Source: an uncultured Chloroflexia bacterium (GTDB taxonomy: Bacteria > Chloroflexota > Limnocylindria > QHBO01). Taken from it: 64,000 nucleotides of DNA. The stretch covers positions 831,756-895,755 of the forward strand of contig CAVOGE010000007.1 of the NCBI GenBank assembly GCA_963695195.1, given 5' to 3'. Both the position numbers and the translations under genes were made by a program. Shown here one piece after another: positions 1,782-61,788 of the stretch. The notes below the pieces were generated by a model. It searched no databases, was not told where the DNA came from, and saw nothing but the letters and a program-made list of their open reading frames with translations. Each line of letters opens with the position of its first letter. Positions within the stretch are counted from its first letter, which is position 1.

Positions 1782-1856
1782 GGTGAGACTGAGTATCACG
1801 TCGTCCCGGCGGGTCGTCAACCCTCCCCGTGGTAGCATCACCTTCGAGTTCACCCC

Positions 1857-35247: not shown

Positions 35248-35283
35248 GAGGCCGATCGTACACGCCGGTAGACTCGACGGAGG

Positions 35284-37008
35284 ATGGTCCGCTCCGCACC
35301 CTTCGCCGAGTTCGCCCGCGTCGCCGATGCGGTCGCCTCCACCACCTCCAAGCTGGCGAAACGCGACGCGCTGGCGGCGTACCTGCGGGCGCTGGCGCCC
35401 GACGACCTGCAGGCGGCGGTGACCTTCTTCGCCGGACGCCCGCTCCCGGGAGCCGCCGATCGGCTGGGCCTCGGCTGGGTTCAACAGTCGCAGTCACTCG
35501 CCGCCGCGGCCCAGGCCGACCCCGCGGCGCTCCACGCGGCCTACCTGCGCCACTCCGATTTCGGCGACGCGGCCGCCGAGCTGTTGGCGCATGCGGCCCC
35601 CACCGGCCATCCTCTGACGCTCGGAGCGGTCCGCGACGCGTTCCGGGCCATGAGCGAGACCTCTTCCACCGAGGCGCGCGTGGCGGAGATGACGCGCCTC
35701 TTCGAACGTGCGTCGCCGGAGGAGGCGCGCTACGCCGCACGGATCGCGGCGCGCGAGCTGCGCATCGGCCTGCGGGAGGGGCTGCTGGAGGAGGCGATCG
35801 CCGCTGCCTTCCAGCGGCCGCTCGGTGCGGTGCGCCAGGCGCACATGCTGCTCGGCGAGCCCGGGGAGGCGGCCGCGCTGGCCAGGGACGACCGGCTGGC
35901 CGAGGCCGCGCTCCATCTCGGCCGACCGATCCGCTTCATGCTCGCCACCCCGGTGGCCGATGCCGACGAGGTGATGCGCCGGGTCGGCGACGAGGCGTGG
36001 ATCGAGGACAAGTACGACGGCATCCGCGCCCAGCTGCATCTCGTCGCCGGCGAGGCCCCGCGCCTCTTCTCGCGCGACCTCAACGAGATCACCGCCTCGT
36101 TCCCCGAGGTCGCCCAGGCGGCCGCCGGCCTGGCGCAGAAGATGGTGATCGACGGGGAGCTGGTCCCGTATCGGTCCGGATCGGTGCTCGACTTCGCGAG
36201 TCTGCAGACGCGCCTTGGCCGGGTTGCGCCGAGCCCCGAGCTGATCGCCGAGGTGCCGGTCGTGCTGGTCGCATTCGACCTCCTGCATCTGGCAGGTCGC
36301 GACCTTCTGGAGGTGCCGCTGCGTGAGCGCCGTGCCGCGCTCGAGGCGCTCAGTCTGCCCCTGCTGACCGAAGGTCGGTTCCTCCTCTCGCACCTCGCGG
36401 CGGCGCGATCGGCCGACGAGGTGGAGCGTCACTTCGACGATGCCCGTGAGCGCCGCAACGAGGGCCTGATGGTCAAGGACCCCGATTCGGTCTACCAGCC
36501 CGGGCGGCGCGGGCTCGGCTGGCTGAAGCTGAAGAAGGCGCTCGCCACGCTCGACTGCGTGGTGGTGGGGGTCGAGTGGGGCCACGGCAAGCGGCGCGGC
36601 GTCCTCTCCGACTACACCTTCGCCGTGCGCTCGCCCGACGGCGAGTCGCTGCTCACCATTGGCAAGGCCTACACCGGCCTGACCGATGCGGAGATCGCAG
36701 CCATGACAGAACGATTCAAGGCCACGACGCTCCAGGACTTCGGTCGCTACCGGACCGTCGTCCCCGAGGTGGTGGTGGAGATCGCCTTCGACCGAATCAT
36801 GCGCTCGAAGCGGCACGACTCAGGTTTCGCGATGCGCTTCCCCCGCATCGTCCGCATCCGCGATGACAAGGCACGGGCCGAAATCGATGACCTCGCCACC
36901 GTGGAGAAGCTCTTCACCGCACAGGCGAGCGGCCGGATCCTGCTGGCACGTGGGCCGCGCGGGGAGATGGAGCGCATCACCGCCACCGGTGAGACGGATG
37001 GGGACTAG
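35284..37008 (+). CDS. ATP-dependent DNA ligase, LigB/Lig1-type (N-terminal DNA-binding domain, nucleotidyltransferase, OB)
   Basis: Intact motif I EDKYDGIRAQL, motif III/IV/V (FDLLHLAG, EGLMVKD, WLKLKK). Confidence 0.85.
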   Translation: MVRSAPFAEFARVADAVASTTSKLAKRDALAAYLRALAPDDLQAAVTFFAGRPLPGAADRLGLGWVQQSQSLAAAAQADPAALHAAYLRHSDFGDAAAELLAHAAPTGHPLTLGAVRDAFRAMSETSSTEARVAEMTRLFERASPEEARYAARIAARELRIGLREGLLEEAIAAAFQRPLGAVRQAHMLLGEPGEAAALARDDRLAEAALHLGRPIRFMLATPVADADEVMRRVGDEAWIEDKYDGIRAQLHLVAGEAPRLFSRDLNEITASFPEVAQAAAGLAQKMVIDGELVPYRSGSVLDFASLQTRLGRVAPSPELIAEVPVVLVAFDLLHLAGRDLLEVPLRERRAALEALSLPLLTEGRFLLSHLAAARSADEVERHFDDARERRNEGLMVKDPDSVYQPGRRGLGWLKLKKALATLDCVVVGVEWGHGKRRGVLSDYTFAVRSPDGESLLTIGKAYTGLTDAEIAAMTERFKATTLQDFGRYRTVVPEVVVEIAFDRIMRSKRHDSGFAMRFPRIVRIRDDKARAEIDDLATVEKLFTAQASGRILLARGPRGEMERITATGETDGD

Positions 37009-37046
37009 AGCCGCTGAACGCTGCGACGCGCTGGTAGCATCGGGTC

Positions 37047-37661
37047 ATGAACGCGTTCGCCGTCGATCCGTTCGCTGTCTCCGCGACCCGTTCGGTTGCG
37101 GTCGACGTCTACACCGCCGCGTACCGGGTCTCAGGCCAGACGGTGACCCGTTTCGGGCGCGTCGCCGACATCGTCAACCAGATCTCCTCGACGCACCTGG
37201 TGATCGACGAGGCCACCGTCAGCGAGTACACGGATCCGACCGCCACGATATCGGCCCAGCAGGTGCTGGTGACGGTTGACGAGATCCTCTTCCTGATGGC
37301 CGCCGAGACCGACGGCGCCGCTCGCCCGGAGATGCGCATCCAGAAGCGTGCGGTACGGGCGCAGCTGGGGCTGCCCCCGTTTCGCCTCACCGGAGCGGTG
37401 CACGTGCCGCAGGGGAGCCGTCCGGCCGACGGGCTGCTCAACGTTGGGGAACGCTTCCTGGCGATGACCGAGGTGACCATCGCCTCTGGGGTGTACCCGG
37501 AGCTGGCACGCACCGCACCGGCCGTGGCGATTCAACGCCAGCGGGCACACGTGCTGCTGGTGACCGACGACGAGCAGCCCGACCAGTTGCTGGCCGACGT
37601 GCTTGATGCGGCAACCGCTGAGCGCTGGCTGAAGCCCCGCGAGAACGACGAGGCGGGCTGA
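37047..37661 (+). CDS. Hypothetical protein (204 aa)
   Basis: Strong coding-like GC3. TAGCAT box just upstream of ATG. No family recognised. Confidence 0.5.
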   Translation: MNAFAVDPFAVSATRSVAVDVYTAAYRVSGQTVTRFGRVADIVNQISSTHLVIDEATVSEYTDPTATISAQQVLVTVDEILFLMAAETDGAARPEMRIQKRAVRAQLGLPPFRLTGAVHVPQGSRPADGLLNVGERFLAMTEVTIASGVYPELARTAPAVAIQRQRAHVLLVTDDEQPDQLLADVLDAATAERWLKPRENDEAG

Positions 37662-37665
37662 CCGG

Positions 37666-38427
37666 CTACGCGCTCTGGGTCGTGGGTGCCGCCGACGGGC
37701 TTCGCGATTCCGCCTCGCCGGCCTCCAGGACTGCCTCCACGAACCGTCCGACACGCTGCGGATCCATCCGCTGCACGCGCCCGATCAGTTGGGCAAACCA
37801 CGGGGCGTTGTCCGTGGTGACGACCTCGAGGTCGGGCTCCTCCAGGACGATCCGGGAGTGCGGCCGCGGGAAGGCGATCGCCCCGGCGACGGGGATCGGC
37901 ACCCCTGGGAGTACCGTGCCCGTCCAGCGCGTCACCGCCTGCACCACCGCCCGCGCGTCCAACGACGGGTTGGTGATGCATGGCACCCATCCGGCGCGGG
38001 TCCGCGTGTCCTGGTCCCAGCTGAGCCCGCGGACGCGGTAGCTCCCGTGCCATCGGCGCGCGATCACGGCGCGCACCCCCGGCGGGCCGACCAGCAGGGC
38101 GGTCAGGTCATCAGGGACGCCGGGCAGCCGCGGGGAGACGATCAGGACGTAGCTGTCGTCGAACGCCGGAGCCAGCAGCCGCACCAGGTCATCGCCGCGC
38201 TCCCGTGTCCTGCGTCGGCCCGCCGAGAAGGCACGCAGTGCGATGGCGCAGCCGACGCCAAGTCCGAGCGCAGCCGACAGTGCGAGGAGCGCGACCGGGG
38301 CCGGGCGTGACGTCGGAATGATCGACATCAGCGCCAGGGCGGTGCAGCCCACGATGAGCATCAGCAGCGCCAGGATCACCGTGCTGCGGGTGGCGCTCCG
38401 GGTCCCCACGGGTCGAATCAGACGCAT
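37666..38427 (-). CDS. NERD-like (nuclease-related domain) membrane protein
   Basis: Two N-terminal TM helices, then DDLTALLVGPPGVRAVIARRWHGSY resembling the NERD core. Confidence 0.45.
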   Translation of the reverse strand: MRLIRPVGTRSATRSTVILALLMLIVGCTALALMSIIPTSRPAPVALLALSAALGLGVGCAIALRAFSAGRRRTRERGDDLVRLLAPAFDDSYVLIVSPRLPGVPDDLTALLVGPPGVRAVIARRWHGSYRVRGLSWDQDTRTRAGWVPCITNPSLDARAVVQAVTRWTGTVLPGVPIPVAGAIAFPRPHSRIVLEEPDLEVVTTDNAPWFAQLIGRVQRMDPQRVGRFVEAVLEAGEAESRSPSAAPTTQSA

Positions 38428-38453
38428 CGAGCTCCTCCTGCTACATTCGACAC

Positions 38454-38945
38454 ATGCCAGAGACCAGTACCGTTCTCGCGACGTTCGGGGATCCGGCCGA
38501 GGGGACGCGGGTCGACGCCGCCACCGGCTCGGGATTCACGATCACGCTCGACTCGGCCGCCGGCGGCGCATCGCGGGGAGGGCCTGGCCCCACCGAATCG
38601 ATCCTGGCGGCGCTCGCCGGGTGCACTGCGATGGATGTGGCAAGCATCCTGCGCAAGAAGCGGCAGCATGCGACCAGCTACCAGATCGCCGTCTCCGGCG
38701 AACGGGCGGACGAGCATCCCCGGGTCTATACCCGAATCGTCGTCGAACATCGCGTGGCGGGCGACGTCGAGCCCGAAGCGCTGCGCCGATCGATCGAGCT
38801 GTCGGCGACAAGCTACTGCCCGGTCAATGCCATGCTCTCGCGCGGTGTGACGGTCGAACATCGGTATCGTCTTGTGCGCGAGGGACGCGACGAGGTGGTG
38901 GCCCTGGTGGTCACCACCGGCCCACAGGGTCCGCAGCTCCCCTGA
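38454..38945 (+). CDS. OsmC/Ohr-family peroxiredoxin
   Basis: Two conserved Cys (LAGCTAMD, SYCPVNAML). Confidence 0.85.
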   Translation: MPETSTVLATFGDPAEGTRVDAATGSGFTITLDSAAGGASRGGPGPTESILAALAGCTAMDVASILRKKRQHATSYQIAVSGERADEHPRVYTRIVVEHRVAGDVEPEALRRSIELSATSYCPVNAMLSRGVTVEHRYRLVREGRDEVVALVVTTGPQGPQLP

Positions 38946-39068
38946 CGCCATCACCCGGCGAGTGTCGCTGCGGCGGGCTTTCGGAGGCAATGGCGGGATG
39001 GTCCTGCGCGCCCCGCGTCCTTTCGTCGAGATCGGTCCCCTTGCGTCGTCGGTGTACCCTTCCCGGCC

Positions 39069-39929
39069 ATGGCACGCTCAATGTGGCGCGGGGCGATCCA
39101 GTTCGGGCTGGTGACGATCCCGGTCAAGCTCTACCTGGCAACCGAGAGCACCTCGATCGGCTTCAACATGCTGCACGCCGATTGCCTGAATCGGATCCAG
39201 ATGAAGATCTACTGCCCGCACCACGACGAGGTGGTTCCCCGCTCCGATACCGTGCGCGGGTACGAGTGGAGCAAGGGCCGCTACGTGGTGATGACCGACG
39301 CGGAGATGGACGCCGTCCCGCTCAAGACGGTGCGCGCCATCGAGATCGAGATGTTCGTGGACGCAAAGCGCGAGGCCCACGAGGCGCAGTTCGTCAAGCA
39401 GGCCTACTACCTGGAGCCCGATCCGATGGGTGCCAAGGCGTTCGAGCTGCTCCGCCAGGTGCTCGCCGAGCAGGGCAAGACGGCCATCTGCAAGATCGTG
39501 CTGAAGGACCGCGAGCAGCTCGCGGCGCTGAACCCGTTCGACACCACCATGCTGCTGACCACACTCCACTGGCCAGACGAGGTTCGCTCGCACACCGAGC
39601 TCAACCTGCCGACCGAGCCGATCGCCGTGAAGCCCGCCGAGCGGGCCATGGCCGAGCAGCTGATCGCCTCGATGACCGGTGAATTCTCGCCGGCCGACTA
39701 CCGTGACGACTATCGGGCGGCCCTCATGTCGGTGATCGAAGCCAAGGTTGGCGGCGAGGAGCCGGTGCCCGCCCAGCGTGTCGAGCCGACCAAGATCGGC
39801 GACCTCATGGCGGCACTCGAGGCCAGCGTGGCTGCCGCCCGCGAGGCGCGACGGAGTGCTGCCGTTGAGCCGCCCTCGGAGACCGCCGACGCCGACCAGC
39901 GGCCGGCGCGCCGCCGCCGGTCCGCCTAG
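39069..39929 (+). CDS. ku: Ku protein (non-homologous end joining)
   Basis: MWRGAIQFGLVTIPVKLY N-terminus, Ku core, basic C-terminal tail. Confidence 0.9.
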   Translation: MARSMWRGAIQFGLVTIPVKLYLATESTSIGFNMLHADCLNRIQMKIYCPHHDEVVPRSDTVRGYEWSKGRYVVMTDAEMDAVPLKTVRAIEIEMFVDAKREAHEAQFVKQAYYLEPDPMGAKAFELLRQVLAEQGKTAICKIVLKDREQLAALNPFDTTMLLTTLHWPDEVRSHTELNLPTEPIAVKPAERAMAEQLIASMTGEFSPADYRDDYRAALMSVIEAKVGGEEPVPAQRVEPTKIGDLMAALEASVAAAREARRSAAVEPPSETADADQRPARRRRSA

Positions 39930-39938
39930 CACCGCGTC

Positions 39939-40640
39939 GTGGCCGCCGAGCAGCTGCCGCTGCCGGTTGCGCCGCGTGCTCCGACTGGCGATGGCCAGGC
40001 GCGGCGTCTCCCGGCCCGCATCTCGCCGATGCTGCCATCGGCGGTGGCGTCTCCGTTTGACGACCCCGACTACCTCTTCGAGGCGTGGTGGCCCGGCGCT
40101 CGGGCGATCGCGTCGTGCGAGCGCGGCCTCCTGCGGCTGCAGGTAGCCGGCATGGCCGACGCCGAGGCGGCGTTCCCGGAGCTGGCCACGCTTCCCGCCC
40201 AGCTGGCCGAGGACGGCACGATGCTCGACGGCACGCTCCTGATCCTCGACGCCGACGGGCGTCCCGACGCCGATCTGCTGCGGCAGCGACTTGCCGGACT
40301 CGGTCGTCCCGGGCGTCCGGCCTATGTCGCCAGCGATCTGCTGTGGGCCGGCGGGCAGTCGGTGCGGCTCAACGCCTTCCGTGTGCGGCGCGCATGGCTC
40401 GAAGCGATCCTGGTGCCCGGCGACCGCGCCACGGTCGGGCGCGCCTACCGTGGCGACGGCACCCTGCTGGCGGAAGCGCTGGCCTCGATGGGCGTTGACG
40501 GCATCTCCGCGCGGCATCTCGGAGCCCGGTACCGGTCCGGCTTCGCCGGCGACGCGTGGTTGCGCGCCCCCATCGCGCCGGCCCAGCCGCGCCCGCGTCC
40601 AACGCTGGCGCTCATCCTCCGCCTGCCGCTCGGCGAGTAG
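39939..40640 (+). CDS. Second LigD-ligase-domain-like protein with degenerate active site (paralog of 3210..3896)
   Basis: ISPMLPS (cf. EPMLAT), YLFEAWWPGARAIA (cf. W.FE.KWDGYR: Lys->Trp, Asp->Pro), SDLLWAGG (motif III), DGISAR (motif IV Lys->Arg), AWLRA (motif V Lys lost). 233 aa, no OB domain. Starts 10 nt after Ku stop. Confidence 0.7.
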   Translation: MAAEQLPLPVAPRAPTGDGQARRLPARISPMLPSAVASPFDDPDYLFEAWWPGARAIASCERGLLRLQVAGMADAEAAFPELATLPAQLAEDGTMLDGTLLILDADGRPDADLLRQRLAGLGRPGRPAYVASDLLWAGGQSVRLNAFRVRRAWLEAILVPGDRATVGRAYRGDGTLLAEALASMGVDGISARHLGARYRSGFAGDAWLRAPIAPAQPRPRPTLALILRLPLGE

Positions 40641-40649
40641 CCCAGCGGC

Positions 40650-41279
40650 TCAGCGGCCCGTGTCGCGCTCACCGAGCAGCCTGAGGGCATGCTCGAGCTT
40701 GGTGAGTGGGTCCCGCTGCAGCCCGACGACATCGAGGAGCGCGGCATCGAGCTGCGCAACCAGCGCATCGTCGGGCGCCTCGCCGGCCCGGCACTCCACC
40801 TCCACCACCATCAGCCGGCCGCGCGCCTCGCCGTTGCGCATCACCGTGACCTCGTCGAGCGACAGGAGCCCGATCCGTCGAGCGCCCGCCAGGACGACCC
40901 GCTCCCGGCGGTGCTGGAGCAGGCTGAATCGCTCGACGAGGCCGAGCCGGGAGGCCGCCGCCTCGCCACCCAGCGCCACGAGCAGGTCACGAGCGGGGGA
41001 AGGGGGCCATCTGCCGAGGCTCGTCTCGGCCCCGGCCGGACCCTCGACCTCCGGACGGAGGTGGAGCGCATCCCCCGGCTCGTGGCGCGCTGGTCCCTTG
41101 AGCGACAGCGTCGTCAGCTCGCCGCGGGTCCGCAGCCGGCATGCCCAGCCCGCCGCGGCCAGGCGCAGGTCCGGGGTATCGAGGTAGCGGTCGAGCTCAT
41201 CTACCGAAGTGCGTCGGCCCGAGCGCGACGGGTCCGAGCGAATCGACGCCGACGAGCGCGCGCAGCGGTGCAACATCAT
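40650..41279 (-). CDS. CYTH-like domain protein (triphosphate tunnel metalloenzyme fold), start uncertain
   Basis: ELDRYL, CRLRTRGELTTLSLKGP, RLMVVEVE motifs resemble CYTH. Possible GTG start near 41204. Confidence 0.45.
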   Translation of the reverse strand: MMLHRCARSSASIRSDPSRSGRRTSVDELDRYLDTPDLRLAAAGWACRLRTRGELTTLSLKGPARHEPGDALHLRPEVEGPAGAETSLGRWPPSPARDLLVALGGEAAASRLGLVERFSLLQHRRERVVLAGARRIGLLSLDEVTVMRNGEARGRLMVVEVECRAGEAPDDALVAQLDAALLDVVGLQRDPLTKLEHALRLLGERDTGR

Positions 41280-41324
41280 GGGCGCGGTACTTGAGCTCGA
41301 CCTCGATCGGGTAGTCGGTCCGCG

Positions 41325-42362
41325 TCACTCGGCGTAGCGGGCCGCGGCACCGCGGGTCGCGACAGCGACGGCCTCGCGCAACGCGGGCGGCTCGAGCACC
41401 TCGACCGCGTCGCCCCACGACAGCACCCATGGCCGGATCTCGACGATGCCAGCGACCGTCACGGTCAGCTCGAGCCGACCGTCGGGGAGATCGGCGATCC
41501 GCTGCGATCGGTGCCAGATCGACTCGCGCACGCGCTGCGCCACCGAGGCCTCGAAGCGCAGCGTGACGGTCTCTGGGGCCGTGGTGTCCGACGACCAGAT
41601 CCCCCACGAGTGCGCCAGCCATCGGTCGGGGTCGAAATCGGCGGGCACCTCGTATCGGTCAGCGGTCAGGGTCGAACTGAGGATCCGCTCCACCTTGTAG
41701 GTCCGCATCGCCTCAACGACTTCGTCAAAGCCGATCAGGTAGACCGATCGGCCGGCCGCATCGGGCTCCAGGAAGTAGGGTCGGACTCGCGCCCGCCTGC
41801 GCTCCCCACCGCTCGCCTCGTACGCGAACTCGACGACGCGACCGTCCGCCCACGCCTGCGCGACGTGCGCGAAGTTGCGGGCGAACGGCTCATTTGGACC
41901 GGCGCGACCGACCGCCAGCATCGTCGCGGCAACGTGCCGCGCGATCGGCTGGGGAAGCAGGTCGGCGAGCTTGGTGAAGGCGCTGACCACCGCCTGGTCG
42001 TACTCGTCGCTCCAGCGGGCGATCAGCCGCGAAGCGAGGAAGAGGACGACCGCCTCGGGAAGGGAGAGGCGCAGCGGCGGCAGGAAGTACTTCTTTTCGA
42101 TCCCGTAGCGACCCTTGCCGGCCTGGAAGATCGGCATCCCAAGCTCATCTTCGAGGGCGCGGATGTCCCGATACACGGTGCGGGTGGTCATGCCCGTCAG
42201 GTCTGCGATCTCCGAGACGGGAACCCCCGCGTCGTTGTGCCCGCGGCTGTACAGGATCGATGCCACGGCCAGCAGGCGCGCCAGGCGGTCGCGCTTGCGG
42301 AAGCTGCCCTCGTCCCCGTCGGCGTCGCCCCAGCGCGCCCAGTCGTCGCGCTCGTCGCTCAC
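41325..42362 (-). CDS. HTH-WYL-WCX transcriptional regulator (PafBC/YafY family)
   Basis: N-terminal HTH (VSEIADLTGMTTRTVYRDIRAL), central WYL domain, C-terminal extension. ATGA overlap with rhodanese gene. Confidence 0.8.
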   Translation of the reverse strand: MSDERDDWARWGDADGDEGSFRKRDRLARLLAVASILYSRGHNDAGVPVSEIADLTGMTTRTVYRDIRALEDELGMPIFQAGKGRYGIEKKYFLPPLRLSLPEAVVLFLASRLIARWSDEYDQAVVSAFTKLADLLPQPIARHVAATMLAVGRAGPNEPFARNFAHVAQAWADGRVVEFAYEASGGERRRARVRPYFLEPDAAGRSVYLIGFDEVVEAMRTYKVERILSSTLTADRYEVPADFDPDRWLAHSWGIWSSDTTAPETVTLRFEASVAQRVRESIWHRSQRIADLPDGRLELTVTVAGIVEIRPWVLSWGDAVEVLEPPALREAVAVATRGAAARYAE

Positions 42363-44039: not shown

Positions 44040-47024
44040 TCAGGCTCCTCCGCTGGCCCGCGGAGCGCGCGTGCGATCCCGCACCGACGCGGTCCGCTTG
44101 CCGGCGGGCCGCTTGACGGCAGTCCGCTTTCCCGGACCGCCCTTGCTGCGAGCATGCCCGGCGCCGACCGCCGCCACCACCGCCCCCGCCATGTCGGACC
44201 GTTCCGCAGAGCCTGGACCAGGTGCATGCAGCGCGGCTCGGGCGAGCTGGTCCAGCGTTCCGCGCAGGTCTCGCATCTCGCTGGGAACATCGGCTGCCGA
44301 GATGACGCGGTCGCCCCCGGACTGCTTGCCGAGGTAGAGCGCGGTGTCTGCGGCAGCGATCAGCCCGTTCTTGTCGGAGGCGTCGCCGGGAATGGTCGCC
44401 ACGCCGATCGAGATGGTGATCGGTGATGCGTCCTGCGCGGTCAGCTTCGCAACCGCCACCCGGACCCGCTCCGCAATGGTTGCCGCGGTTACGGCGTCGA
44501 CATCCGGCAGGACGAGTGCGAACTCATCGCCCCCGTAGCGGAAGACGAGGTCATCCGCGCGAGCGGCACCGTGAATCGCCACGCCGACCGCGTGGAGCAG
44601 TGCGTCTCCAGCCGGGTGGCCGAGGCGGTCGTTGTAGCCCTTGAACAGATCGAGGTCGAGCATCAGCAGCGAGACGGTTCGACGGTCGGTGGCGCGGCGC
44701 CTTCCTCTGCCGGCGGACGCGTCGCACAGGGCACCAAGGATGCGCTGGAACGCACCGTGATTCCCCAGCTCGGTCAGCGCATCGGTATCGGCCCGTTCGT
44801 TCACGGCGTGGTGTGCCTCTGCGTTGCGAAGCGCGATCGACGCCTGGCCGGCGAACAGCTTCACCAGTTCGAAGTCGTTCTCCGAGAAGTAGTTTTCGTC
44901 CGCGCCCACGCGCGAGATGTTCATGCAACCGATCACCTCTCCCGCGCTCACAAGCGGCACGACCGCCAGCGCCTCGGGATCGGCCGGCGTGCCGGGAATC
45001 TGCATGGCGCGAGGGTCGTGCAGCGCATCGTTGGCCAGGATCGGTTCGGCGTGATCGGTCGCCCAGCCCATCAGGCCACTGCCGAAGGGGACGACGTACC
45101 GCCTCACCTGCTCTGCGTGGCGCTCCCGGGTGAGGACCGGCGTCAGCACCCGGTTCACTGGGTCAGTGCGGTAGATCGACAGGTTGTCGTAGCGCACCAC
45201 CGATCGGAGTCCGTCGGCGATCGCCTCGAGGACGAGCTGGCGGTCGAGGGTCGAGTTGAGCCGCTCCGTGATCTCGAGCAGTCTGCCCTGCGAGTTGAGC
45301 TGACGGGTGAGCTCGGTCGACTGGAGCTCGAGGCGGGCATATGCCGATGCGTTGGCGATGGCCTGGGCCGCATATCCGGCAAAGATCATCATGGTCTGAA
45401 GGTCGTCGGCGCTGAACTGGTCGATCCCCAGCTTCGAGAGCGCGACAACACCGAGCGCGCGGCCCTCGAAGACCATGGGCACGACGAGCATCGACTCCTC
45501 GATCTCGTCGGTCCCTTCGATGGTGTGCCCGCGGGGGTCGTGGAGCGCGTCATTGGCGAGGATCGGCTCGCCGTGCTCCGCCACCCATCCGGTGAAGGAA
45601 CCGTCGCCGATGTCGACCTGCAGCGCCTCGCGGAAGTCGCCCTCCCCGAGGAGCCGATCAGTAAACGCGATCGGTTCGCAGATCCCACGCTCCCAGTTGG
45701 CCGAATAGACGCGGATGTCGTGGTACGCAGCCAGGGTGCTCGCCTCCGCGACGATGGCATCGGCGATGGCCTGGACATCGGTCAGCCGGTTGAGGCGCGC
45801 GGACAGGTCCTGGATCGAGCGCATGCGAGCGGCCTGGTCGGCGACCGACCGATAGAGGCGCGCATTGCTGATCGCGACCGCGGCCTGGTTGGCGAAGGCT
45901 TGCGCCAGGGCAATCTCGTCCTCGGGCCAGTCGCGGTCCCGGGTGTGGTACAGGCCGATGACCCCGACCGCGCGATCGTGGCTGACCAGCGGGACGAGGC
46001 AGGCGGTCTGGATTCCTTCATGCCGATAGACCGCCTGCAGCGCTCCGACACCCGGCCGCGCCCCGGCCTCGCGGATGACGCATGTGCGTCGCTCACGGAC
46101 TGCCTGGACCCCCAGCGACGGAGTCTCCAGGGTGAGGCCCCGGACGGTGGCGAGAAACTCCTCGCCGATGCCACGCGAGGCGGCCACGTGGAACGGGTGG
46201 TCGCCCTCCTGGATCAGCCAGAGTCCGACCTTTTCAGCGTCGAAGAGTGATCGCGTGCGGTCGACAATATCGTCGAGTACCACGCTCAGCTCGAGCTGGC
46301 TGGTCAGTTCCTGGGTCACATGTCGAAGGGCCCGCGCCCGAGTCGCTTCGCGGCGGGCGCGGGCCATGGCTCGTGCCTGGCGCACATCTGCGGCGATCGC
46401 GGCGGCGACCGTCTGAACGAATGGGCGCCGCAGCGCGTCTGCGCCGGCCGTCTGCTCGATCAGGAGCGCCCCGAGCGTGTCGCCAGCGATCGTGAGCGGC
46501 GTCACGAGCACCAGGGGAGCGTCCCCCGAGCGTGGGAGGGTCATCAGCCCCTCGTCGCCGGCCTCGCCGGCGACGCTCAGCTTCTCCGGTGGTGCAACGT
46601 CATATCCGGCGTGCGTCTCGAGCCGAAGGTCGCCCTCGTCGCCCTCGCGGGCAAGGTAGATGGCCACTCGTTCGACGGGCAGGTGCGTGCGAATTGCCTC
46701 GATCGCTCCACGGCAGACCGCGGACACGTTTGCCGGCATGCCGCCCACGGCAACGAGGCGTGTCAGCACGGCCAACTCAGCGTCGCGCGTACTCGCTGAC
46801 GTGGCTTCGCGCTCATCGGTGGCCGATCCCTCTGCCAGCAGCCGCTCGACGTCGCCGCGGCGGAACCGACGATCCCCGCGTGCATTGATCCGGAACGCGG
46901 GGAGGCGGCCAGCCTCGGCCCAGGCGCGGATCGTGTTCGGGTGGACGGCGAGCATCGCGGCAGCCTGCGCCACGCTGACGAGCACCCCCCGGTCCTCCCT
47001 GCGGTCGCTGTGCGGCTGTCCCAT
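44040..47024 (-). CDS. Multidomain regulator: MerR/excisionase-type HTH, multiple GAF domains, GGDEF diguanylate cyclase
   Basis: HTH (MLAVHPNTIRAWAEAGRLPAF), 3-4 GAF repeats, GGDEF (RYGGDEFALVL). Confidence 0.8.
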   Translation of the reverse strand: MGQPHSDRREDRGVLVSVAQAAAMLAVHPNTIRAWAEAGRLPAFRINARGDRRFRRGDVERLLAEGSATDEREATSASTRDAELAVLTRLVAVGGMPANVSAVCRGAIEAIRTHLPVERVAIYLAREGDEGDLRLETHAGYDVAPPEKLSVAGEAGDEGLMTLPRSGDAPLVLVTPLTIAGDTLGALLIEQTAGADALRRPFVQTVAAAIAADVRQARAMARARREATRARALRHVTQELTSQLELSVVLDDIVDRTRSLFDAEKVGLWLIQEGDHPFHVAASRGIGEEFLATVRGLTLETPSLGVQAVRERRTCVIREAGARPGVGALQAVYRHEGIQTACLVPLVSHDRAVGVIGLYHTRDRDWPEDEIALAQAFANQAAVAISNARLYRSVADQAARMRSIQDLSARLNRLTDVQAIADAIVAEASTLAAYHDIRVYSANWERGICEPIAFTDRLLGEGDFREALQVDIGDGSFTGWVAEHGEPILANDALHDPRGHTIEGTDEIEESMLVVPMVFEGRALGVVALSKLGIDQFSADDLQTMMIFAGYAAQAIANASAYARLELQSTELTRQLNSQGRLLEITERLNSTLDRQLVLEAIADGLRSVVRYDNLSIYRTDPVNRVLTPVLTRERHAEQVRRYVVPFGSGLMGWATDHAEPILANDALHDPRAMQIPGTPADPEALAVVPLVSAGEVIGCMNISRVGADENYFSENDFELVKLFAGQASIALRNAEAHHAVNERADTDALTELGNHGAFQRILGALCDASAGRGRRRATDRRTVSLLMLDLDLFKGYNDRLGHPAGDALLHAVGVAIHGAARADDLVFRYGGDEFALVLPDVDAVTAATIAERVRVAVAKLTAQDASPITISIGVATIPGDASDKNGLIAAADTALYLGKQSGGDRVISAADVPSEMRDLRGTLDQLARAALHAPGPGSAERSDMAGAVVAAVGAGHARSKGGPGKRTAVKRPAGKRTASVRDRTRAPRASGGA

Positions 47025-58119: not shown

Positions 58120-58176
58120 TCCTCCGCCCGTCCGCGACGGCCGAGGTGTCGCGCCCATCGGCTACGCTTGCGGTCC

Positions 58177-59268
58177 GTGAAACTCCTGCATTTCGCCGAC
58201 CTCCATCTCGACGCGCCCTTCGCCTGGGCTACCCCCGCGGTGGCACGAACGCGGCGCCAGAACCGACGCGAAACGCTGACGCGGGTGCTCGAACTGGCCG
58301 AGGCTGAGGCGGTCGACGCGATCCTGTGCGCCGGCGACCTGTTCGAGCACGACCGGTTCACGCCCGACACGATCGAGTTCCTGCGCGCGAGCTTCGCGCG
58401 GACCGATCGGCCCATCTATCTCGCGCCTGGCAACCACGACTGGTATTCGCCCCGAAGCCCGTACGCGCTGGCGGCATGGTCGTCCAACGTGCACCTCTTC
58501 ACGGAGGACCGCCTCACCCCGGTCACGCTCGCGGACGGGCTGACGCTGTGGGGTGCCGCGCACCGTGCTCCCGCCAACACCGATGGCTTCTTCGCCGGCT
58601 TCTCGACCGATCGCAGCGGCATCCACCTGGCGCTGGCGCACGCATCGGAGCGCGGCGCGCTCGCTTTCCAGGAGTCGGGCAAGCAGCCGCATGCACCGTT
58701 CGACGCCGCCGAGCTGGAGGGGGCCGGGATCGCGCACGCGTTCCTCGGCCACTACCACGTCGCCCGTGATCGAGACCGCCACACGTATCCCGGCAACCCG
58801 GATCCGCTCGAATTCGGCGAATCGGCCGATCGGGGGGTGGTGATCGCCGTCGTCGCCGACGACGGAGGCATCACGCGGGTGCGCCATTCGGTCGCGGTGA
58901 GCGCCGTCCACGACGTCGACGTTTCGCTCGACGGCTGCCAGCATGCCGACGATGTCCGCGACCGCGTCGGGGCGGCGATCGCCGGTCTCGCGGGCTCGGT
59001 CCGCGTGACCCTCGCCGGCGAGGTGCCGGCCGCGTTGCCGATCAGCCCGCGTGAGCTGCAGTCACTCGGCGATCACCTCGACGGCCTGCTCGTTCGAAGC
59101 GGCTCCGTTCACCCCATGTACGACCTCGAGGCGATCCGCCACGAGGCGACCGTGCGCGGCCAGTTCGCGCGCGACACCGACGAGATCGAAGACGACGAGC
59201 GCCGCCGCCGCGTGCTGATCACCGGCTTGCGAGCCCTCGAGGGCCGCGCCGACCTCGAGGTCGCCTGA
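58177..59268 (+). CDS. SbcD/Mre11-like metallophosphoesterase (YhaO/SbcF-like)
   Basis: VKLLHFADLHLD, GDLFEH, GNHD, GHYH phosphoesterase motifs. Confidence 0.8.
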   Translation: MKLLHFADLHLDAPFAWATPAVARTRRQNRRETLTRVLELAEAEAVDAILCAGDLFEHDRFTPDTIEFLRASFARTDRPIYLAPGNHDWYSPRSPYALAAWSSNVHLFTEDRLTPVTLADGLTLWGAAHRAPANTDGFFAGFSTDRSGIHLALAHASERGALAFQESGKQPHAPFDAAELEGAGIAHAFLGHYHVARDRDRHTYPGNPDPLEFGESADRGVVIAVVADDGGITRVRHSVAVSAVHDVDVSLDGCQHADDVRDRVGAAIAGLAGSVRVTLAGEVPAALPISPRELQSLGDHLDGLLVRSGSVHPMYDLEAIRHEATVRGQFARDTDEIEDDERRRRVLITGLRALEGRADLEVA

Positions 59269-59271
59269 CCG

Positions 59272-61788
59272 ATGTGGATCGAGCGGGTGATCGCCCATGC
59301 CTTCGGGCCGTTTCAGGACGCGACGCTTGAGTTGGGCGAGGGGATGACCGTGGTTGCCGGTCCCAACGAGGCCGGCAAGACCACGTGGCACGCTGCCACC
59401 CGCCTTGCGCTCACCGGCCTGCGCCGCGGGCCGGGCATGACCAAGGAGGCACACGAGTTGATCCGCCGCCACCGCCCGTGGGACGCGCCGGAGCGATGGG
59501 AGGTCGAGGCGCGCCTGCATCTGGCGGACGGGCGCGCGATCGACATCATCCAGGACCTGGCCGGCAAGGTGGCATGCCGCGCCCGCGACGTGGTGCTGGG
59601 GGGCGACGTGTCCGCGGAGATCATCAACGACGGCACGCCCGACGCCAGCCGCTGGCTCGGGCTGGATCGCGATGCCTTCGCATCGGTCGCTGCGGTCAGC
59701 CAGGCGCAGATCATGGCCGTCGCCGACAACGCTGGCGCGCTCCAGGATGACCTCCAGCGAGCCGCCGCCACCCGCGGGACGGATGCCACCGCCGCGGAGG
59801 CGATCGACCAGCTGAAGGCCTTCCGCCGCGAGTCTGTCGGTGCCGATACCCGGGCCGCCGTTGGGCCGCTGCGCCGGGCGATCCGTGACCAGGAGTCGGC
59901 AGAGTCGGCGGTGGCGGAGGCGCGACGGCTGCACGCGGAGTACCTGGAGCGCCGAGCGAGCCTCGAGGAGGCCCAGGCGGGCCATCTTGCCGCGAGCCGC
60001 GTGCAGGCCGGCGTCGAGGTGGCGCGCGCGCGTCGCGAGGCGGAGGTACTTGTCCGGCGCACCGCACGCGCCCAGGAGCTCGCCGCCAGGTACCCGATCG
60101 CGCCGGCCGGCCTGGATACGCAGGACGCGCTGGCCCGCGAGGTCGCTGCCGCGCTGGACGGGTGGCGGCATCGTCCTCCGCTGCCAATGCTCGACGGTCC
60201 CGGCAGCGGGGCGCTGGCGACCCAGATTGCCGCGCTGCCCGCGCTGCCCGACGGCGATCGCCGGCCGCACCCCGAGGTGGTGGAGGCGTCTCGGTCGCTC
60301 GATCTGGCGGAGGAGGCGCTTCGGCTCCATCACGATAGTCCTGCGACGTCGGCCGAGGCAACGGCCCAGGCGCCGATCACATCAACCGCGAGATCGGGAA
60401 CCCCCGGCTGGGCCATACCCGTGGCGGCCGGAGGGGCGGCAGCGGTTGCCGGTGTCGCCCTGCTCGCGGTGCAGCAGACACCTGCTGGCGTCGCCCTCGC
60501 CATGTTCGGGGTGCTGCTGGCGGCCTGGGGATGGTCACGGCGCGGTCCTGCTGGCGCGGGGGCGAACCCCGCTGCGGAGCGGCTTATCAACGAGCAGCAG
60601 GCGGAGGCGCGGCGGTCGACGAAAGTGGTGCTCGACGCTACCCTCCGCGACGCCGAGCAACGGCTGCGCCGAGCGCTCGTTGGCCGCGGGGCCGAGGTCA
60701 ATGGGACGCTCCGTGCTGCCCTGACCGCATATGAGACCGCCTGCGCGGACCGCGCGGATCAGGCCGAGGCGGCCGCCGGCGGCGAAGGGCTGCGCCAGGC
60801 GCTGGCGTCCAGGAGCGCTCTCGAGGCGAGCGCCGACCAGGCACGGCAGACCGCCGCCGCCGCCGAGGTCGCGCTCCGCGCCGCCGCCACACGGGTCGGT
60901 GAACCGTCCGAAGGTACGGTCGAAGAGATCGACGCGGCCCTTGGGGCCTGGCAGGCGCGCTGGACGGAGGCGGTGCGCGGTGTCGAGGTCGCGATCCGCG
61001 AGTGGCAGGAGCTGGAAGGGCTGCTGGACGGTCGAAGCCTGGAGGAGCTCCGGGATGAGGCTGCTCGCCGCCGGGCCGCCTCGGACCGACTGGTCGAGGC
61101 GCTGGACGGTGAGCCGCCGTCCCTGGCAGCCGAGGTGGACCTCGAGGCAGTCGAATCGAGCGCGCGCGCCGCAACCGCGATGGCGAAAGCGACGGCCGAC
61201 GCCCTCACCGGGGAACTGCGACTGACCGGCGCCGCGCTGCCCGACGTCGCCGAGGCCGAGGAGCGCCTCGCAGCCTCGCGCGCCGAACTGGCTCGCGTCA
61301 CAGAACTTGCCGAGGTGCTCGACCAGACGCTCGACCTCCTTCAGGCGGCCGAGCGCAGGGTGCACCGCGACATTGCGCCCGTGTTGAAGGCGTCGGTCGA
61401 GCGCCACCTGCCGACGGTCACCGGTGGAGCGTACGACGAGGTTGGGGTGAACCCGCGGGATCTCTCGGTCGATGTGAAGGAGGCCCGCACCGGCCAGTGG
61501 CGTGACGCCAGGCTCCTGTCGGAGGGTACCCGGGAGCAGGTCTACCTCCTGCTCCGTGTCGCGATGGCGGAACACCTGGTGACCACCGCGGAGACCGCCC
61601 CGCTCCTGCTCGACGAAGTGACTGCGCAGGCGGACCCCGACCGCAAGCGCCAGGTGCTCGAGGTGCTCCGCGCGGTCAGCGCGGACCGGCAGGTCGTGCT
61701 CTTCAGTCACGACGCCGACGTGCTGGCCTGGGCCGATATCTCTCTGTCCGAGCCACGTGACAGGGTCGTCCGACTGGGTGGCTGGTAG
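59272..61788 (+). CDS. SbcC/Rad50-like SMC ATPase with central hydrophobic segment (YhaN/SbcE-like)
   Basis: Walker A GPNEAGKTT, long Ala/Arg-rich coiled coil, signature LSEGTREQVYLL, Walker B LLLDE. Hydrophobic stretch ~res 380-420. Confidence 0.8.
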   Translation: MWIERVIAHAFGPFQDATLELGEGMTVVAGPNEAGKTTWHAATRLALTGLRRGPGMTKEAHELIRRHRPWDAPERWEVEARLHLADGRAIDIIQDLAGKVACRARDVVLGGDVSAEIINDGTPDASRWLGLDRDAFASVAAVSQAQIMAVADNAGALQDDLQRAAATRGTDATAAEAIDQLKAFRRESVGADTRAAVGPLRRAIRDQESAESAVAEARRLHAEYLERRASLEEAQAGHLAASRVQAGVEVARARREAEVLVRRTARAQELAARYPIAPAGLDTQDALAREVAAALDGWRHRPPLPMLDGPGSGALATQIAALPALPDGDRRPHPEVVEASRSLDLAEEALRLHHDSPATSAEATAQAPITSTARSGTPGWAIPVAAGGAAAVAGVALLAVQQTPAGVALAMFGVLLAAWGWSRRGPAGAGANPAAERLINEQQAEARRSTKVVLDATLRDAEQRLRRALVGRGAEVNGTLRAALTAYETACADRADQAEAAAGGEGLRQALASRSALEASADQARQTAAAAEVALRAAATRVGEPSEGTVEEIDAALGAWQARWTEAVRGVEVAIREWQELEGLLDGRSLEELRDEAARRRAASDRLVEALDGEPPSLAAEVDLEAVESSARAATAMAKATADALTGELRLTGAALPDVAEAEERLAASRAELARVTELAEVLDQTLDLLQAAERRVHRDIAPVLKASVERHLPTVTGGAYDEVGVNPRDLSVDVKEARTGQWRDARLLSEGTREQVYLLLRVAMAEHLVTTAETAPLLLDEVTAQADPDRKRQVLEVLRAVSADRQVVLFSHDADVLAWADISLSEPRDRVVRLGGW

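What the first reader, a model, noticed from the sequence alone, without database searches (positions are those of the whole stretch)
35284..42362. Atypical end-joining neighbourhood: LigB-type ligase, Ku, pseudo-LIG, CYTH and WYL regulator, with no LigD POL or PE domains
Within 7 kb lie an intact Lig1/LigB-type ligase (motif I KYDGIR), a hypothetical 204-aa protein, a NERD-like membrane protein, OsmC, Ku, the pseudo-LIG, and a convergent CYTH-like gene that follows a WYL-domain regulator (PafBC-like regulators control DNA-damage regulons). No primase-polymerase or phosphoesterase domain is present in the window. The composition suggests a non-canonical, WYL-regulated end-processing or repair system whose accessory factors are the uncharacterised 204-aa, CYTH and pseudo-LIG proteins.
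Basis: inference. Interest (0 to 1): 0.65.

Follow-up and report, generated by a model that had tools for sequence, protein, structure and literature searches.

The report
Ku paired with dead ligase relic

Summary
The gene inventory is correct: an intact three-domain ATP-dependent ligase, a DUF6812 protein, a membrane protein, OsmC, Ku, a 233-aa LigD-like protein ("pLIG"), CYTH and a WYL regulator. No LigD polymerase (POL) or phosphoesterase (PE) domain lies in the 64-kb window.

The real unit is the two-gene ku–pLIG operon.
- pLIG keeps the ligase nucleotidyltransferase fold (AF2 pLDDT 90; 2.2 Å to the Mtb LigD ligase domain).
- It lacks the OB domain and every catalytic residue; motif I KxDG is an invariant WWPG.
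- It is under selection as strong as Ku's (dN/dS 0.10 vs 0.08) and occurs in 249 species-level genomes.
- It always lies directly after ku, even where all other neighbours differ.
- It carries an N-terminal QLxLP[V/L] peptide resembling a β-clamp-binding motif, absent from 71 active LigD-type ligases.

A related Chloroflexota MAG has a complete LigD in the same slot, after a 64%-identical Ku.

The ku promoter motif is unique to ku. The ligase and the WYL gene have different promoters. DUF6812, the membrane protein, OsmC and CYTH are variably lost, and CYTH is frameshifted here.

The "one WYL-regulated system" reading is therefore only partly supported. Whether these genomes carry LigD elsewhere is untested.

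The parts
39039..39061 (+). Promoter of the ku-pLIG operon: CCTTGCGTCGTCGGTGTACCCTT. The -10 hexamer TACCCT lies 8 nt before the ATG, so the mRNA is leaderless. A conserved TTGC element lies 11 nt upstream of the -10 (about -26 to -23), and there is no -35 at normal spacing.
   Evidence: Footprint across 83 distinct ku upstream regions. The PWM scores 19.9 bits here and the next best hit in the window scores 12.3. GGTGTANNNT occurs once in 64 kb. At >=15 bits, 76 of 78 hits in 1.49 Mb of related loci lie upstream of ku.
38990..39006 (+). Second conserved element upstream of ku, ATGGCGGGATGGTCCTG. Its role is unknown.
   Evidence: Exact match found once in the window. GATGGTCCT occurs 38 times in 1.56 Mb, and 32 of those lie within 130 bp upstream of ku.
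39069..39929 (+). ku, 286 aa, the bacterial NHEJ end-binding protein. Its C-terminal arm motif DLMAALEASV is retained.
   Evidence: PF02735 at 148.7 bits; TIGR02772 at 272 bits, above its cut-off. It is 64% identical to the Ku that precedes a full LigD in L094. dN/dS 0.08.
39939..40640 (+). pLIG, 233 aa: a catalytically dead, OB-less derivative of the LigD ligase nucleotidyltransferase (NTase) domain. It starts 9 nt after the ku stop codon.
   Evidence: Best NCBIfam hits are LigD-type models, all far below their cut-offs. The closest solved structure is the Mtb LigD ligase domain. AF2 model pLDDT 90.2, and Foldseek gives 2.2 Å over 185 aa to 1vs0/6nhx. dN/dS 0.10. Found in 249 species genomes.
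39951..39968 (+). QLPLPV (residues 5-10): a candidate β-clamp-binding hexapeptide in the disordered N-terminal tail.
   Evidence: Present in 70 of 76 long-form family members, and in 0 of 71 catalytically intact LigD-type ligase domains. pLDDT is 57-59 for residues 1-20. The published consensus is QφxLxL.
40080..40097 (+). EAWWPG (residues 48-53), the relic of motif I. W50 replaces the adenylated lysine and P52 replaces the aspartate.
   Evidence: W50, W51, P52 and G53 are invariant in both the 15- and the 14-sequence alignments, down to 40% identity. The family has no invariant lysine anywhere. Alignment to Mtb LigD FEGKWDGYR.
40596..40637 (+). C-terminal tail RPTLALILRLPLGE. It is conserved across the family, replaces the OB domain and is modelled with low confidence.
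   Evidence: R220, P221, T222, L223, A224, L225, L227, R228, L229, P230 and L231 are invariant in the main clade. The pattern RPxLxLLxRLPL holds across about 45 50%-identity clusters. pLDDT 63-78.
35284..37008 (+). Intact three-domain ATP-dependent DNA ligase (Lig1/LigB type), 574 aa. It is a possible sealing enzyme, but its link to ku-pLIG is weak.
   Evidence: Three Pfam ligase domains; TIGR00574 at 261.6 bits, above its 217.8 cut-off. It lies 3-7 kb upstream of ku in the main clade only. It has its own leaderless promoter with -10 TAGACT.
41325..42362 (-). HTH-WYL-WCX transcription regulator, 345 aa. It neighbours ku-pLIG in the main clade; regulation of ku is possible but not shown.
   Evidence: Pfam WCX 71 bits, WYL 48 bits, HTH_11. 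It lies 0.7-3.8 kb downstream of pLIG in main-clade loci and is absent near ku-pLIG in L007-L009 and near ku-ligD in L094.
40650..41327 (-). CYTH gene, co-transcribed with the WYL gene (the start GTG overlaps the WYL stop codon). It is frameshifted in this window near 41205-41240. It is not part of the Ku module.
   Evidence: Orthologous CYTH proteins hit the window in two frames. Removing one T restores a 224-aa ORF. dN/dS 0.39, and the gene is absent from many loci.

Best explanation
The functional unit is a two-gene operon, ku-pLIG, driven by its own conserved promoter.

pLIG descends from the ligase domain of a Chloroflexota LigD that once occupied the same position downstream of ku. It has lost the phosphoesterase, OB and polymerase domains and every residue needed for ligase chemistry. 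It has kept the nucleotidyltransferase fold under strong purifying selection, and it has gained two short terminal peptides.

The most likely mechanism (inferred) is that pLIG is a non-catalytic partner of Ku. In this reading its folded core keeps the surface that LigD's ligase domain offers to the Ku C-terminal arm and to DNA. Its disordered N-terminal QLxLP[V/L] peptide would tether the complex to the β sliding clamp or to another partner.

The phosphodiester bond must then be sealed by a separate enzyme. Candidates are the intact Lig1/LigB-type ligase 3 kb upstream, NAD-dependent LigA, or a LigD encoded elsewhere.

The DUF6812 protein, the membrane protein and OsmC are lineage-specific neighbours. 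WYL-CYTH is a separate operon. Neither is a demonstrated component.

Shown: gene content, fold, loss of catalytic residues, selection, strict ku adjacency, the promoter, and the ligD-slot relationship. Inferred: Ku binding, clamp binding, and which ligase seals.
For: **Catalytic death**
- Motif I K->W and D->P, motif III E->T, motif IV K->R, motif V K..K->R..P.
- No invariant Lys in the family.
- No OB domain: the protein ends 25 residues after motif V.

**Fold kept**
- pLDDT 90.2, pTM 0.82. Foldseek top hits are all ligase NTase domains; Mtb LigD gives rmsd 2.2 Å and 27% identity.

**Functional, not decaying**
- dN/dS median 0.10, against Ku 0.08 and the ligase 0.12.
- 709 homologues in the 90%-identity protein database, about 45 50%-identity clusters and 249 species genomes.

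**Ku linkage**
- ku lies immediately upstream in every locus that has upstream sequence, with gaps from -4 to +32 nt.
- This includes L007-L009, where all other neighbours differ.

**The ligD slot**
- In L094-L097 a 943-aa PE-LIG-OB-POL LigD follows a Ku that is 64% identical to the window's Ku. The pLIG-linked Ku of L007 is 65% identical.
- Ku proteins next to LigD in other phyla are only 30-41% identical.
- A neighbour-joining (NJ) tree groups the L097 Ku with the L007 and L008 Ku.
- The same TTGCG-N9-TAnnnT promoter layout lies upstream of the L094 ku.

**Ku-binding surface is plausible**
- The Mtb Ku C-terminal arm contacts LigD NTase residues D522, R567/T572, K579 and L580 (bioRxiv 10.64898/2025.12.12.693941).
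- D522 aligns with pLIG E91, which is invariant in the main clade.
- The Ku C-terminal DLMAALEASV motif is conserved in both LigD-linked and pLIG-linked Ku.

**Clamp motif**
- Q-L-x-L-[PS]-[VLI] occurs in 70 of 76 long forms, inside a variable, low-confidence tail, and in 0 of 71 active LigD-type ligase domains.
- It matches the published QφxLxL consensus, as in Hda QLSLPL and ImuB QLPLWG.
Against: - No direct evidence that pLIG binds Ku, DNA or the clamp. No complex could be modelled here.
- Many gene callers start pLIG at Met31, which would remove the N-terminal peptide. The long start is inferred from amino-acid conservation upstream.
- The sixth motif position is usually Val rather than Leu/Phe, and hexapeptide clamp motifs bind weakly in some species.
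- Related inactive variants (RWGG/WWGG/CWGG) with the same tail and a similar N-terminal motif occur without Ku (L010, L092, L093). The family's core function may therefore not depend on Ku.
- The Ku tree is a single NJ tree without support values.
- Canonical LigD exists in MAGs labelled Limnocylindria. pLIG genomes might also have LigD, which would make pLIG an accessory rather than a replacement.
Confidence: 0.6

Rival explanations
1. The whole 35.3-42.4 kb stretch is one non-canonical, WYL-regulated end-joining system. The LigB-type ligase seals. The 204-aa DUF6812 protein, CYTH and pLIG are accessory factors.
For: - In about 80 main-clade species the ligase lies 3-7 kb upstream of ku-pLIG and the WYL gene 0.7-3.8 kb downstream.
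- The ku promoter has a -10 plus a conserved element at about -26 and no -35. This is the layout of PafBC (WYL) 'sigma adaptation' promoters.
- WYL regulators often sense ssDNA and control damage responses (abstracts).
- In some genomes DUF6812 sits directly upstream of ku (L006).
Against: - Unrelated flanking genes are just as syntenic.
- L007-L009 keep only ku-pLIG.
- L094 has the same ku promoter layout with no WYL gene within 10 kb.
- The ku motif is absent upstream of the ligase, DUF6812, CYTH and WYL genes. The ligase and the WYL gene have different promoters.
- DUF6812, the membrane protein, OsmC and CYTH are each lost in many loci. CYTH is relaxed (dN/dS 0.39) and frameshifted here.
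Confidence: 0.15
2. pLIG is an accessory or regulatory subunit of an otherwise canonical NHEJ system. In this view the same genomes also encode a full LigD (POL, PE, LIG), possibly with a second Ku, elsewhere. pLIG modulates or competes with it at Ku-bound ends, for example as a dominant-negative occupant of the Ku C-terminal arm.
For: - Full-length LigD proteins are annotated in Candidatus Limnocylindria MAGs (P0521, P0527) and other Chloroflexota.
- pLIG keeps the NTase surface that contacts Ku in Mtb.
Against: - pLIG sits exactly where ligD sits after a closely related Ku. This suggests alternative states rather than coexistence.
- No POL or PE domain was found in 1.49 Mb around 93 pLIG-family loci.
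- No genome was shown to hold both.
Confidence: 0.25
3. pLIG is a decaying pseudogene-like remnant of ligD with no function of its own.
For: - All catalytic residues and three of the four LigD domains are gone.
- It is only 31% identical to the Chloroflexota LigD ligase domain, while the Ku proteins are 64% identical.
Against: - dN/dS is 0.10, as low as for the active ligase.
- The ORF is intact in 249 species.
- The replacement residues themselves (WWPG) are invariant down to 40% identity.
- New conserved terminal motifs have been gained.
- The fold is predicted with confidence.
Confidence: 0.02

Closest known systems
Canonical bacterial NHEJ operon ku-ligD (M. tuberculosis Rv0937c/Rv0938; Chloroflexota example L094, GCA_005883615.1)
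   Same: - Same gene order: ku, then a LigD-type nucleotidyltransferase (NTase) gene immediately downstream.
- The Ku is orthologue-like (64% identity to the L094 Ku).
- The pLIG core superposes on the Mtb LigD ligase domain at 2.2 Å.
- The ku promoter layout is similar in L094.
   Different: - pLIG has no PE, OB or POL domain and no catalytic lysine or other ligase motif residues.
- It carries a new N-terminal QLxLP peptide and a C-terminal RLPL tail.
- It cannot be the sealing enzyme.
ImuB of the mycobacterial ImuA'-ImuB-DnaE2 mutasome (a catalytically dead Y-family polymerase that acts as a hub through a β-clamp-binding motif, QLPLWG)
   Same: - A repair enzyme fold that has lost catalysis but is conserved.
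- It carries a QLxLxx peptide.
- It is proposed to organise other factors on DNA.
   Different: - A different fold (ligase NTase rather than Y-family polymerase) and a different pathway.
- Clamp binding by pLIG is only a sequence-pattern inference.
Stand-alone LigC / LIG-only ATP-dependent ligases that back up LigD in NHEJ
   Same: A small protein homologous to the LigD ligase domain, encoded apart from POL and PE.
   Different: LigC has the NTase and OB domains with all motifs and is active. pLIG has the NTase domain only and is inactive.
PafBC-dependent 'sigma adaptation' promoters of actinobacteria
   Same: The ku promoter has a normal -10, a conserved element at about -26 to -23, and no -35 at canonical spacing. 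A WYL regulator is encoded nearby in the main clade.
   Different: - The element's sequence differs: TTGC(G) here, against the GTC-containing RecA-NDp motif.
- The local regulator is a single HTH-WYL-WCX gene, not a PafB/PafC pair.
- No binding has been shown.
- The same promoter layout occurs in L094 without a neighbouring WYL gene.
Lig1/LigB-type three-domain ATP-dependent ligases (mycobacterial LigB, archaeal ligases)
   Same: The 574-aa protein has the DBD, NTase and OB domains with motifs I-VI intact.
   Different: It scores below every NCBIfam equivalog cut-off (best 366 bits against 543). No role with Ku is documented for this class, and its linkage to ku here is confined to one syntenic clade.

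Membership tests
DNA ligase D (LigD) ligase domain | Motif I lysine (KxDG) that forms the enzyme-AMP adduct | tested here: not met
   FEAWWPG replaces FExKWDG. W50 is invariant in the family, and there is no invariant Lys anywhere.
DNA ligase D (LigD) ligase domain | Motifs III, IIIa, IV and V (E, aromatic residue, K, KxK) that bind the nucleotide | tested here: not met
   LDGTL, VASDLL, DGISAR and WLRAP.
DNA ligase D (LigD) ligase domain | OB-fold domain with motif VI following the nucleotidyltransferase (NTase) domain | tested here: not met
   The protein ends 25 residues after motif V. There is no PF04679 hit. PDB alignments stop at the end of the NTase domain. tblastn with a LigD OB-domain query found nothing significant (E>=0.59) in the window and the six related loci held at that point.
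DNA ligase D (LigD) ligase domain | Nucleotidyltransferase (adenylation-domain) fold | tested here: met
   AF2 pLDDT 90.2. Foldseek to 1vs0/6nhx gives E about 1e-13 and rmsd 2.2 Å over 185 aa.
Multidomain LigD / conventional NHEJ | POL (PF21686) and PE (PF13298) domains in the protein or the locus | tested here: not met
   None in the window and none in 93 related loci. The positive control detects both domains in 15 LigD loci. The rest of the genome was not testable.
Bacterial Ku (TIGR02772) | Ku β-barrel core plus the conserved minimal C-terminus, scoring above the curated cut-off | tested here: met
   272.2 bits against a cut-off of 150; PF02735 at 148.7 bits. The C-terminal DLMAALEASV motif is conserved.
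Lig1/LigB-type ATP-dependent DNA ligase (574-aa protein) | DBD, NTase and OB domains with motifs I-VI | tested here: met
   PF04675, PF01068 and PF04679 all score above their cut-offs. TIGR00574 scores 261.6, above its 217.8 cut-off. The motifs were read from the sequence. No equivalog model reaches its cut-off.
PafBC-type WYL activator | Paired PafB/PafC HTH-WYL-WCX subunits and recognition of the RecA-NDp -26 element | tested here: inconclusive
   A single 345-aa HTH-WYL-WCX gene. HTH_PafC scores 23.5 bits, below its 32-bit cut-off. The ku promoter has an element at about -26, but with a different sequence. Binding is not testable here.
CYTH (triphosphate tunnel metalloenzyme) | N-terminal ExExK motif in frame with the tunnel domain | tested here: not met
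   The domain hit scores 32.9 bits, above its 23.2 cut-off. However, EVELK is encoded in a different frame, so the window copy is frameshifted, either as a pseudogene or through an assembly error.
NERD domain (claimed for the 253-aa membrane protein) | Match to the NERD profile | tested here: not met
   No Pfam family matches at E<=10, and there is no NCBIfam or PADLOC hit.
β-clamp-binding proteins | QφxLxL or QLxLF peptide in a disordered region that binds the DnaN cleft | tested here: inconclusive
   The pattern QLPLPV is present, conserved in 70 of 76 members and lies in a low-pLDDT tail. Binding itself is not testable with these tools.

The most novel reading that the evidence does not exclude
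Limnocylindria may run a LigD-less end-joining pathway built around a pseudoenzyme.

In this reading pLIG, a dead LigD ligase domain, acts as a scaffold. It docks on the Ku C-terminal arm at a break. Through its N-terminal QLxLP peptide it recruits the β sliding clamp, and with it a clamp- or pLIG-associated Lig1-type ligase.

This would be a bacterial counterpart of the non-catalytic ligase partners of eukaryotic NHEJ and of PCNA-Lig1 coupling. It would also mean that domain-based surveys mis-score a whole class as 'Ku + LigD' NHEJ-positive.
Probability: 0.2. Interest if true: 0.8.

Novelty: new variant of a known kind. Interest (0 to 1): 0.6.

Why it matters
Bacterial NHEJ is usually described as Ku plus the multifunctional enzyme LigD. 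Here an abundant soil and freshwater class keeps ku but pairs it with a strongly conserved, catalytically dead fragment of LigD.

- **A new kind of Ku partner.** If pLIG is a Ku cofactor, it is the first pseudoenzyme component proposed for prokaryotic end joining. It would offer a simple handle on how Ku's C-terminal arm recruits partners, and on how Ku-dependent joining can proceed with a non-LigD ligase. That question was recently raised by LigD-independent NHEJ in Pseudomonas (PMC13273297, abstract).
- **An annotation problem.** JGI labels these proteins 'bifunctional NHEJ protein LigD'. Domain-count surveys would score them as 'LIG present' (scheme in PMC7719229). Such surveys would therefore wrongly count these proteins as a functional LigD ligase domain.

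Tried and rejected
- **First AF2 run.** The 15-sequence alignment failed (pLDDT 38). It succeeded only after active LigD domains were added to the alignment.
- **Rfam scan of 34-45 kb.** Nothing relevant.
- **PADLOC.** Only generic WYL/Cas3c-type hits to the regulator, so there is no sign of a defence system.
- **Shared operator.** I looked for a motif linking ku, the ligase and the WYL gene. The ku PWM is ku-specific. An ATCGGTCY word is enriched upstream of the ligase (opposite strand, -50) and the WYL gene (-20), but not upstream of ku. It may simply reflect inherited promoter sequence, so I left it unresolved.
- **DUF6812 homologue search.** It returned only Limnocylindria hypothetical proteins and no functional clue. 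No paper mentions DUF6812.
- **Literature.** Searches for a Ku-associated inactive ligase found nothing.
- **Metagenome scan with a Limnocylindria-labelled LigD (P0527).** The aim was to see whether ligD ever sits in the window's syntenic block. It returned only distant LigD loci, which were useful only as positive controls.
- **The ku PWM.** It was trained on sites containing TGTA, so it under-scores the variants in L094 and L009. Those were compared by eye instead.
- **Co-occurrence of pLIG and LigD in one genome.** This could not be tested because whole genomes cannot be retrieved.

Full report
**1. Observation**

The window is about 70% GC. Its closest protein relatives come from MAGs of Candidatus Limnocylindria, phylum Chloroflexota.

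- a 574-aa three-domain ATP-dependent ligase with motifs I-VI intact (sequence);
- a 204-aa DUF6812 protein;
- a 253-aa membrane protein;
- OsmC;
- Ku (TIGR02772, 272 bits);
- a 233-aa LigD-like protein, called pLIG here;
- CYTH;
- an HTH-WYL-WCX regulator.

Two details need correcting.
- The membrane protein has no NERD match, nor any other Pfam match, even at E<=10.
- The CYTH gene is frameshifted. Orthologous CYTH proteins hit the window in frame -2 (41319-41209, which holds the EVELK catalytic motif) and in frame -3 (41240-40671). Deleting one T restores a 224-aa ORF whose GTG start overlaps the WYL stop codon.

No LigD polymerase (POL) or phosphoesterase (PE) domain is in the window. The same tblastn queries find both domains in 15 control LigD loci at E 1e-25 to 1e-67.

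**2. What pLIG is**

A family profile matches the M. tuberculosis LigD ligase domain (1VS0; E 1e-19), but only over its nucleotidyltransferase (NTase) half. Every catalytic position is replaced:

| Position | Active LigD | pLIG |
|---|---|---|
| Motif I | FEGKWDGYR | FE(P/A)WWPGAR |
| Motif III | E | T |
| Motif IV | K | R |
| Motif V | KxK | RxP |

Across members down to 40% identity, WWPG is invariant and no lysine is conserved anywhere. The protein ends about 25 residues after motif V, so it has no OB domain.

With a deep alignment, AlphaFold gives a confident model (pLDDT 90.2). Residues 25-212 superpose on ligase adenylation domains; the Mtb LigD ligase domain gives 2.2 Å over 185 residues. 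Residues 1-20 and 213-233 are modelled with low confidence.

pLIG is not decaying.
- Across 12 closely related pairs of loci its dN/dS is 0.10. That compares with 0.08 for Ku and 0.12 for the active ligase.
- It has 709 homologues at 90% clustering and about 45 clusters at 50%.
- The peptide [LF]FEPWWPG is encoded in 249 species-representative genomes. The best 80 are almost all Limnocylindria or Chloroflexota MAGs.

**3. What travels with what**

I tabulated homologues of the window's genes in 91 loci, 1.49 Mb in total.

In the main clade (pLIG >=55% identical):
- The order is ligase ... (DUF6812) (membrane protein) (OsmC) ku-pLIG ... (CYTH) WYL ... GAF/GGDEF protein.
- Unrelated flanking genes are equally syntenic, so shared ancestry can explain the co-location.
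- The bracketed genes are each missing from many loci.
- A 2.2-kb Wzy_C gene is often inserted after pLIG.
- In one subclade an aminotransferase and a methyltransferase separate the ligase from the rest.

In three divergent lineages every neighbour differs, yet ku and pLIG remain adjacent or overlapping. No ligase or WYL gene lies within 10 kb. The three are L007 (on a 1.88-Mb contig), L008 and L009.

ku-pLIG is therefore the conserved module.

**4. Origin**

The active ligases that score best against the pLIG profile are Chloroflexota LigDs such as P0137. Their relatives include full PE-LIG-OB-POL proteins annotated in Candidatus Limnocylindria MAGs (P0521, P0527).

One of these, P0526 (943 aa), sits directly downstream of a ku in GCA_005883615.1 (L094-L097).
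- That Ku is 64% identical to the window's Ku, the same level as the pLIG-linked Ku of L007 (65%).
- Ku proteins beside LigD in other phyla are only 30-41% identical.
- A neighbour-joining tree places the LigD-linked Ku with the L007 and L008 Ku. The tree has no support values.
- The L094 ku also has the TTGCG-N9-TAnnnT promoter layout.

pLIG thus occupies the ligD slot after an orthologue-like ku. It has diverged to 31% identity with that LigD's ligase domain. This fits reduction and re-purposing of LigD in place.

**5. New features of pLIG**

The tail upstream of the fold carries [E/D]-Q-L-x-L-[P/S]-[V/I/L], separated from the core by a variable linker.
- 70 of 76 long-form family members have it.
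- The Ku-less variants have QLTFRL or QLAFDI.
- None of 71 catalytically intact LigD-type domains has such a peptide within 70 residues of motif I.

The pattern fits the hexapeptide β-clamp-binding consensus QφxLxL, as in Hda QLSLPL and Pol IV QLVLGL, and ImuB QLPLWG. ImuB is itself a dead polymerase that serves as a hub. Clamp binding is my inference and was not tested.

The C-terminal RPxLxLLxRLPL tail is conserved across the family. Its role is unknown.

**6. Regulation**

The ku upstream regions share a motif, TTGC-N7-CGGTGTAnnnT. TTG lies 11 nt before the -10, at about -26 to -24, and there is no -35 at normal spacing.
- In the window the motif lies 8 nt before the ATG, so the mRNA is leaderless. 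In other genomes it lies 40-80 nt upstream.
- It is essentially unique to ku. It is the only strong hit in the window.
- It accounts for 76 of 78 hits in 1.49 Mb of related loci.
- It never occurs upstream of the ligase, DUF6812, CYTH or WYL genes.

The ligase has its own leaderless promoter (-10 TAGACT). In the related loci where it has its own upstream intergenic region, the WYL gene is preceded by CATCGGTCTATCATCGG; in this window it instead overlaps the upstream rhodanese gene.

The ku layout resembles PafBC 'sigma adaptation' promoters, which have a -10 and a -26 element and no -35 (PMC8635444). That keeps control by a WYL regulator possible. However, the element's sequence differs, no binding is shown, and L094 has the same layout without a nearby WYL gene.

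**7. Mechanism**

Published work shows that the Mtb Ku C-terminal arm contacts LigD's NTase subdomain at D522, R567/T572, K579 and L580.
- D522 aligns with pLIG E91, which is invariant in the main clade.
- The Ku C-terminal DLMAALEASV motif is conserved in pLIG-linked Ku.

I therefore favour pLIG as a non-catalytic Ku partner, a scaffold or adaptor possibly tethered to the clamp. Sealing would fall to another ligase.

The neighbouring Lig1-type enzyme is a candidate for that role. Its association rests only on synteny within one clade.

**8. Caveats**

- Whole genomes could not be retrieved, so LigD, POL or PE may exist elsewhere in pLIG-bearing genomes.
- Inactive relatives of pLIG also occur without Ku, next to polyphosphate genes.
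- The long translation start is inferred.

**9. Verdict**

What is new is a class-wide ku-pseudoligase operon. I found no description of it in the literature searched.

Noticed in passing
window 41205-41240 (- strand), CYTH gene 40650-41327: The CYTH gene is split by a +1 frameshift. Its ExExK (EVELK) motif lies in a different frame from the rest of the gene, and removing one T restores a 224-aa ORF that overlaps the WYL stop codon (GTGA). This is either a real pseudogene or an assembly error.
   Followed up: yes
window 58120-59268 and 59269-61788 (+): A calcineurin-like phosphoesterase followed by an 839-aa AAA_23/SMC_N protein. The pair looks like the SbcD-SbcC (Mre11-Rad50-like) end-processing nuclease, about 18 kb from ku. 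No ku-type promoter motif lies upstream of it.
   Followed up: partly
window 38990-39006; related loci within 130 bp upstream of ku: ATGGCGKGATGGTCCT is a second element specific to the ku upstream region: 32 of the 38 GATGGTCCT occurrences in 1.56 Mb lie there. Its distance from the promoter varies and its role is unknown.
   Followed up: partly
L010 10001-10744; L092 3383-4174; L093 10001-10768: Other catalytically dead LigD-like NTase proteins (motif I RWGG, WWGG or CWGG) carry the same RLPL tail and a QLxFxL-type N-terminus. They occur without Ku in a block conserved across these three contigs, with GBBH-like_N and YbjQ genes and PPK1. CYTH-CHAD is seen in L010 and L092. PPK2 lies next to the gene only in L010 and L011.
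   Followed up: partly
L007 11261-12394: A β-CASP/RMMBL (metallo-β-lactamase nuclease family) gene lies 550 bp downstream of ku-pLIG on the same strand, in the divergent lineage on a 1.88-Mb contig.
   Followed up: no
window 44040-47024 (-): The conserved neighbour upstream of the WYL operon is a ~1000-aa protein with an HTH_17/MerR domain and multiple GAF domains, ending in a GGDEF signature (RYGGDEFALVL). Together with CYTH, this means the WYL gene is flanked by nucleotide-signalling genes, so the WYL protein might sense a nucleotide rather than ssDNA.
   Followed up: no
related loci, 20-30 nt upstream of the WYL start (e.g. L077, L019, L005): In genomes where the WYL gene has its own intergenic region, it is preceded by CATCGGTCTATCATCGG: two CATCGG direct repeats bracketing the -10 TATCAT. 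This could be an autoregulatory site. A related word, ATCGGTCY, is enriched about 50 nt upstream of the ligase on the opposite strand.
   Followed up: partly
window 35248-35284: The ligase and the divergent aminoglycoside-phosphotransferase/aminotransferase fusion gene are separated by only about 35 bp. The ligase -10 (TAGACT, 35270-35275) lies 8 nt before its ATG, so this mRNA is also leaderless.
   Followed up: partly
L017, L028, L040, L042, L052, L085: Contigs carrying the Limnocylindria-type ku-pLIG block (65-72% identity, same synteny) are filed under Methylomirabilota, Pleomorphomonadaceae, Zixiibacteriota, Steroidobacteraceae, Dormiibacterota and Binatia MAGs. This most likely reflects binning contamination.
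   Followed up: no
P0145 (327 aa, Dehalococcoidia MAG): Another LigD-like protein has motif I FEPLYDGQR, with Lys replaced by Leu. This hints at an independent pseudo-ligase in a different Chloroflexota class.
   Followed up: no
window 1648-3174 and 3800-4732 (+): A DEAD-box helicase and an HhH-GPD base-excision glycosylase lie at the start of the window. Nothing links them to the Ku locus.
   Followed up: no
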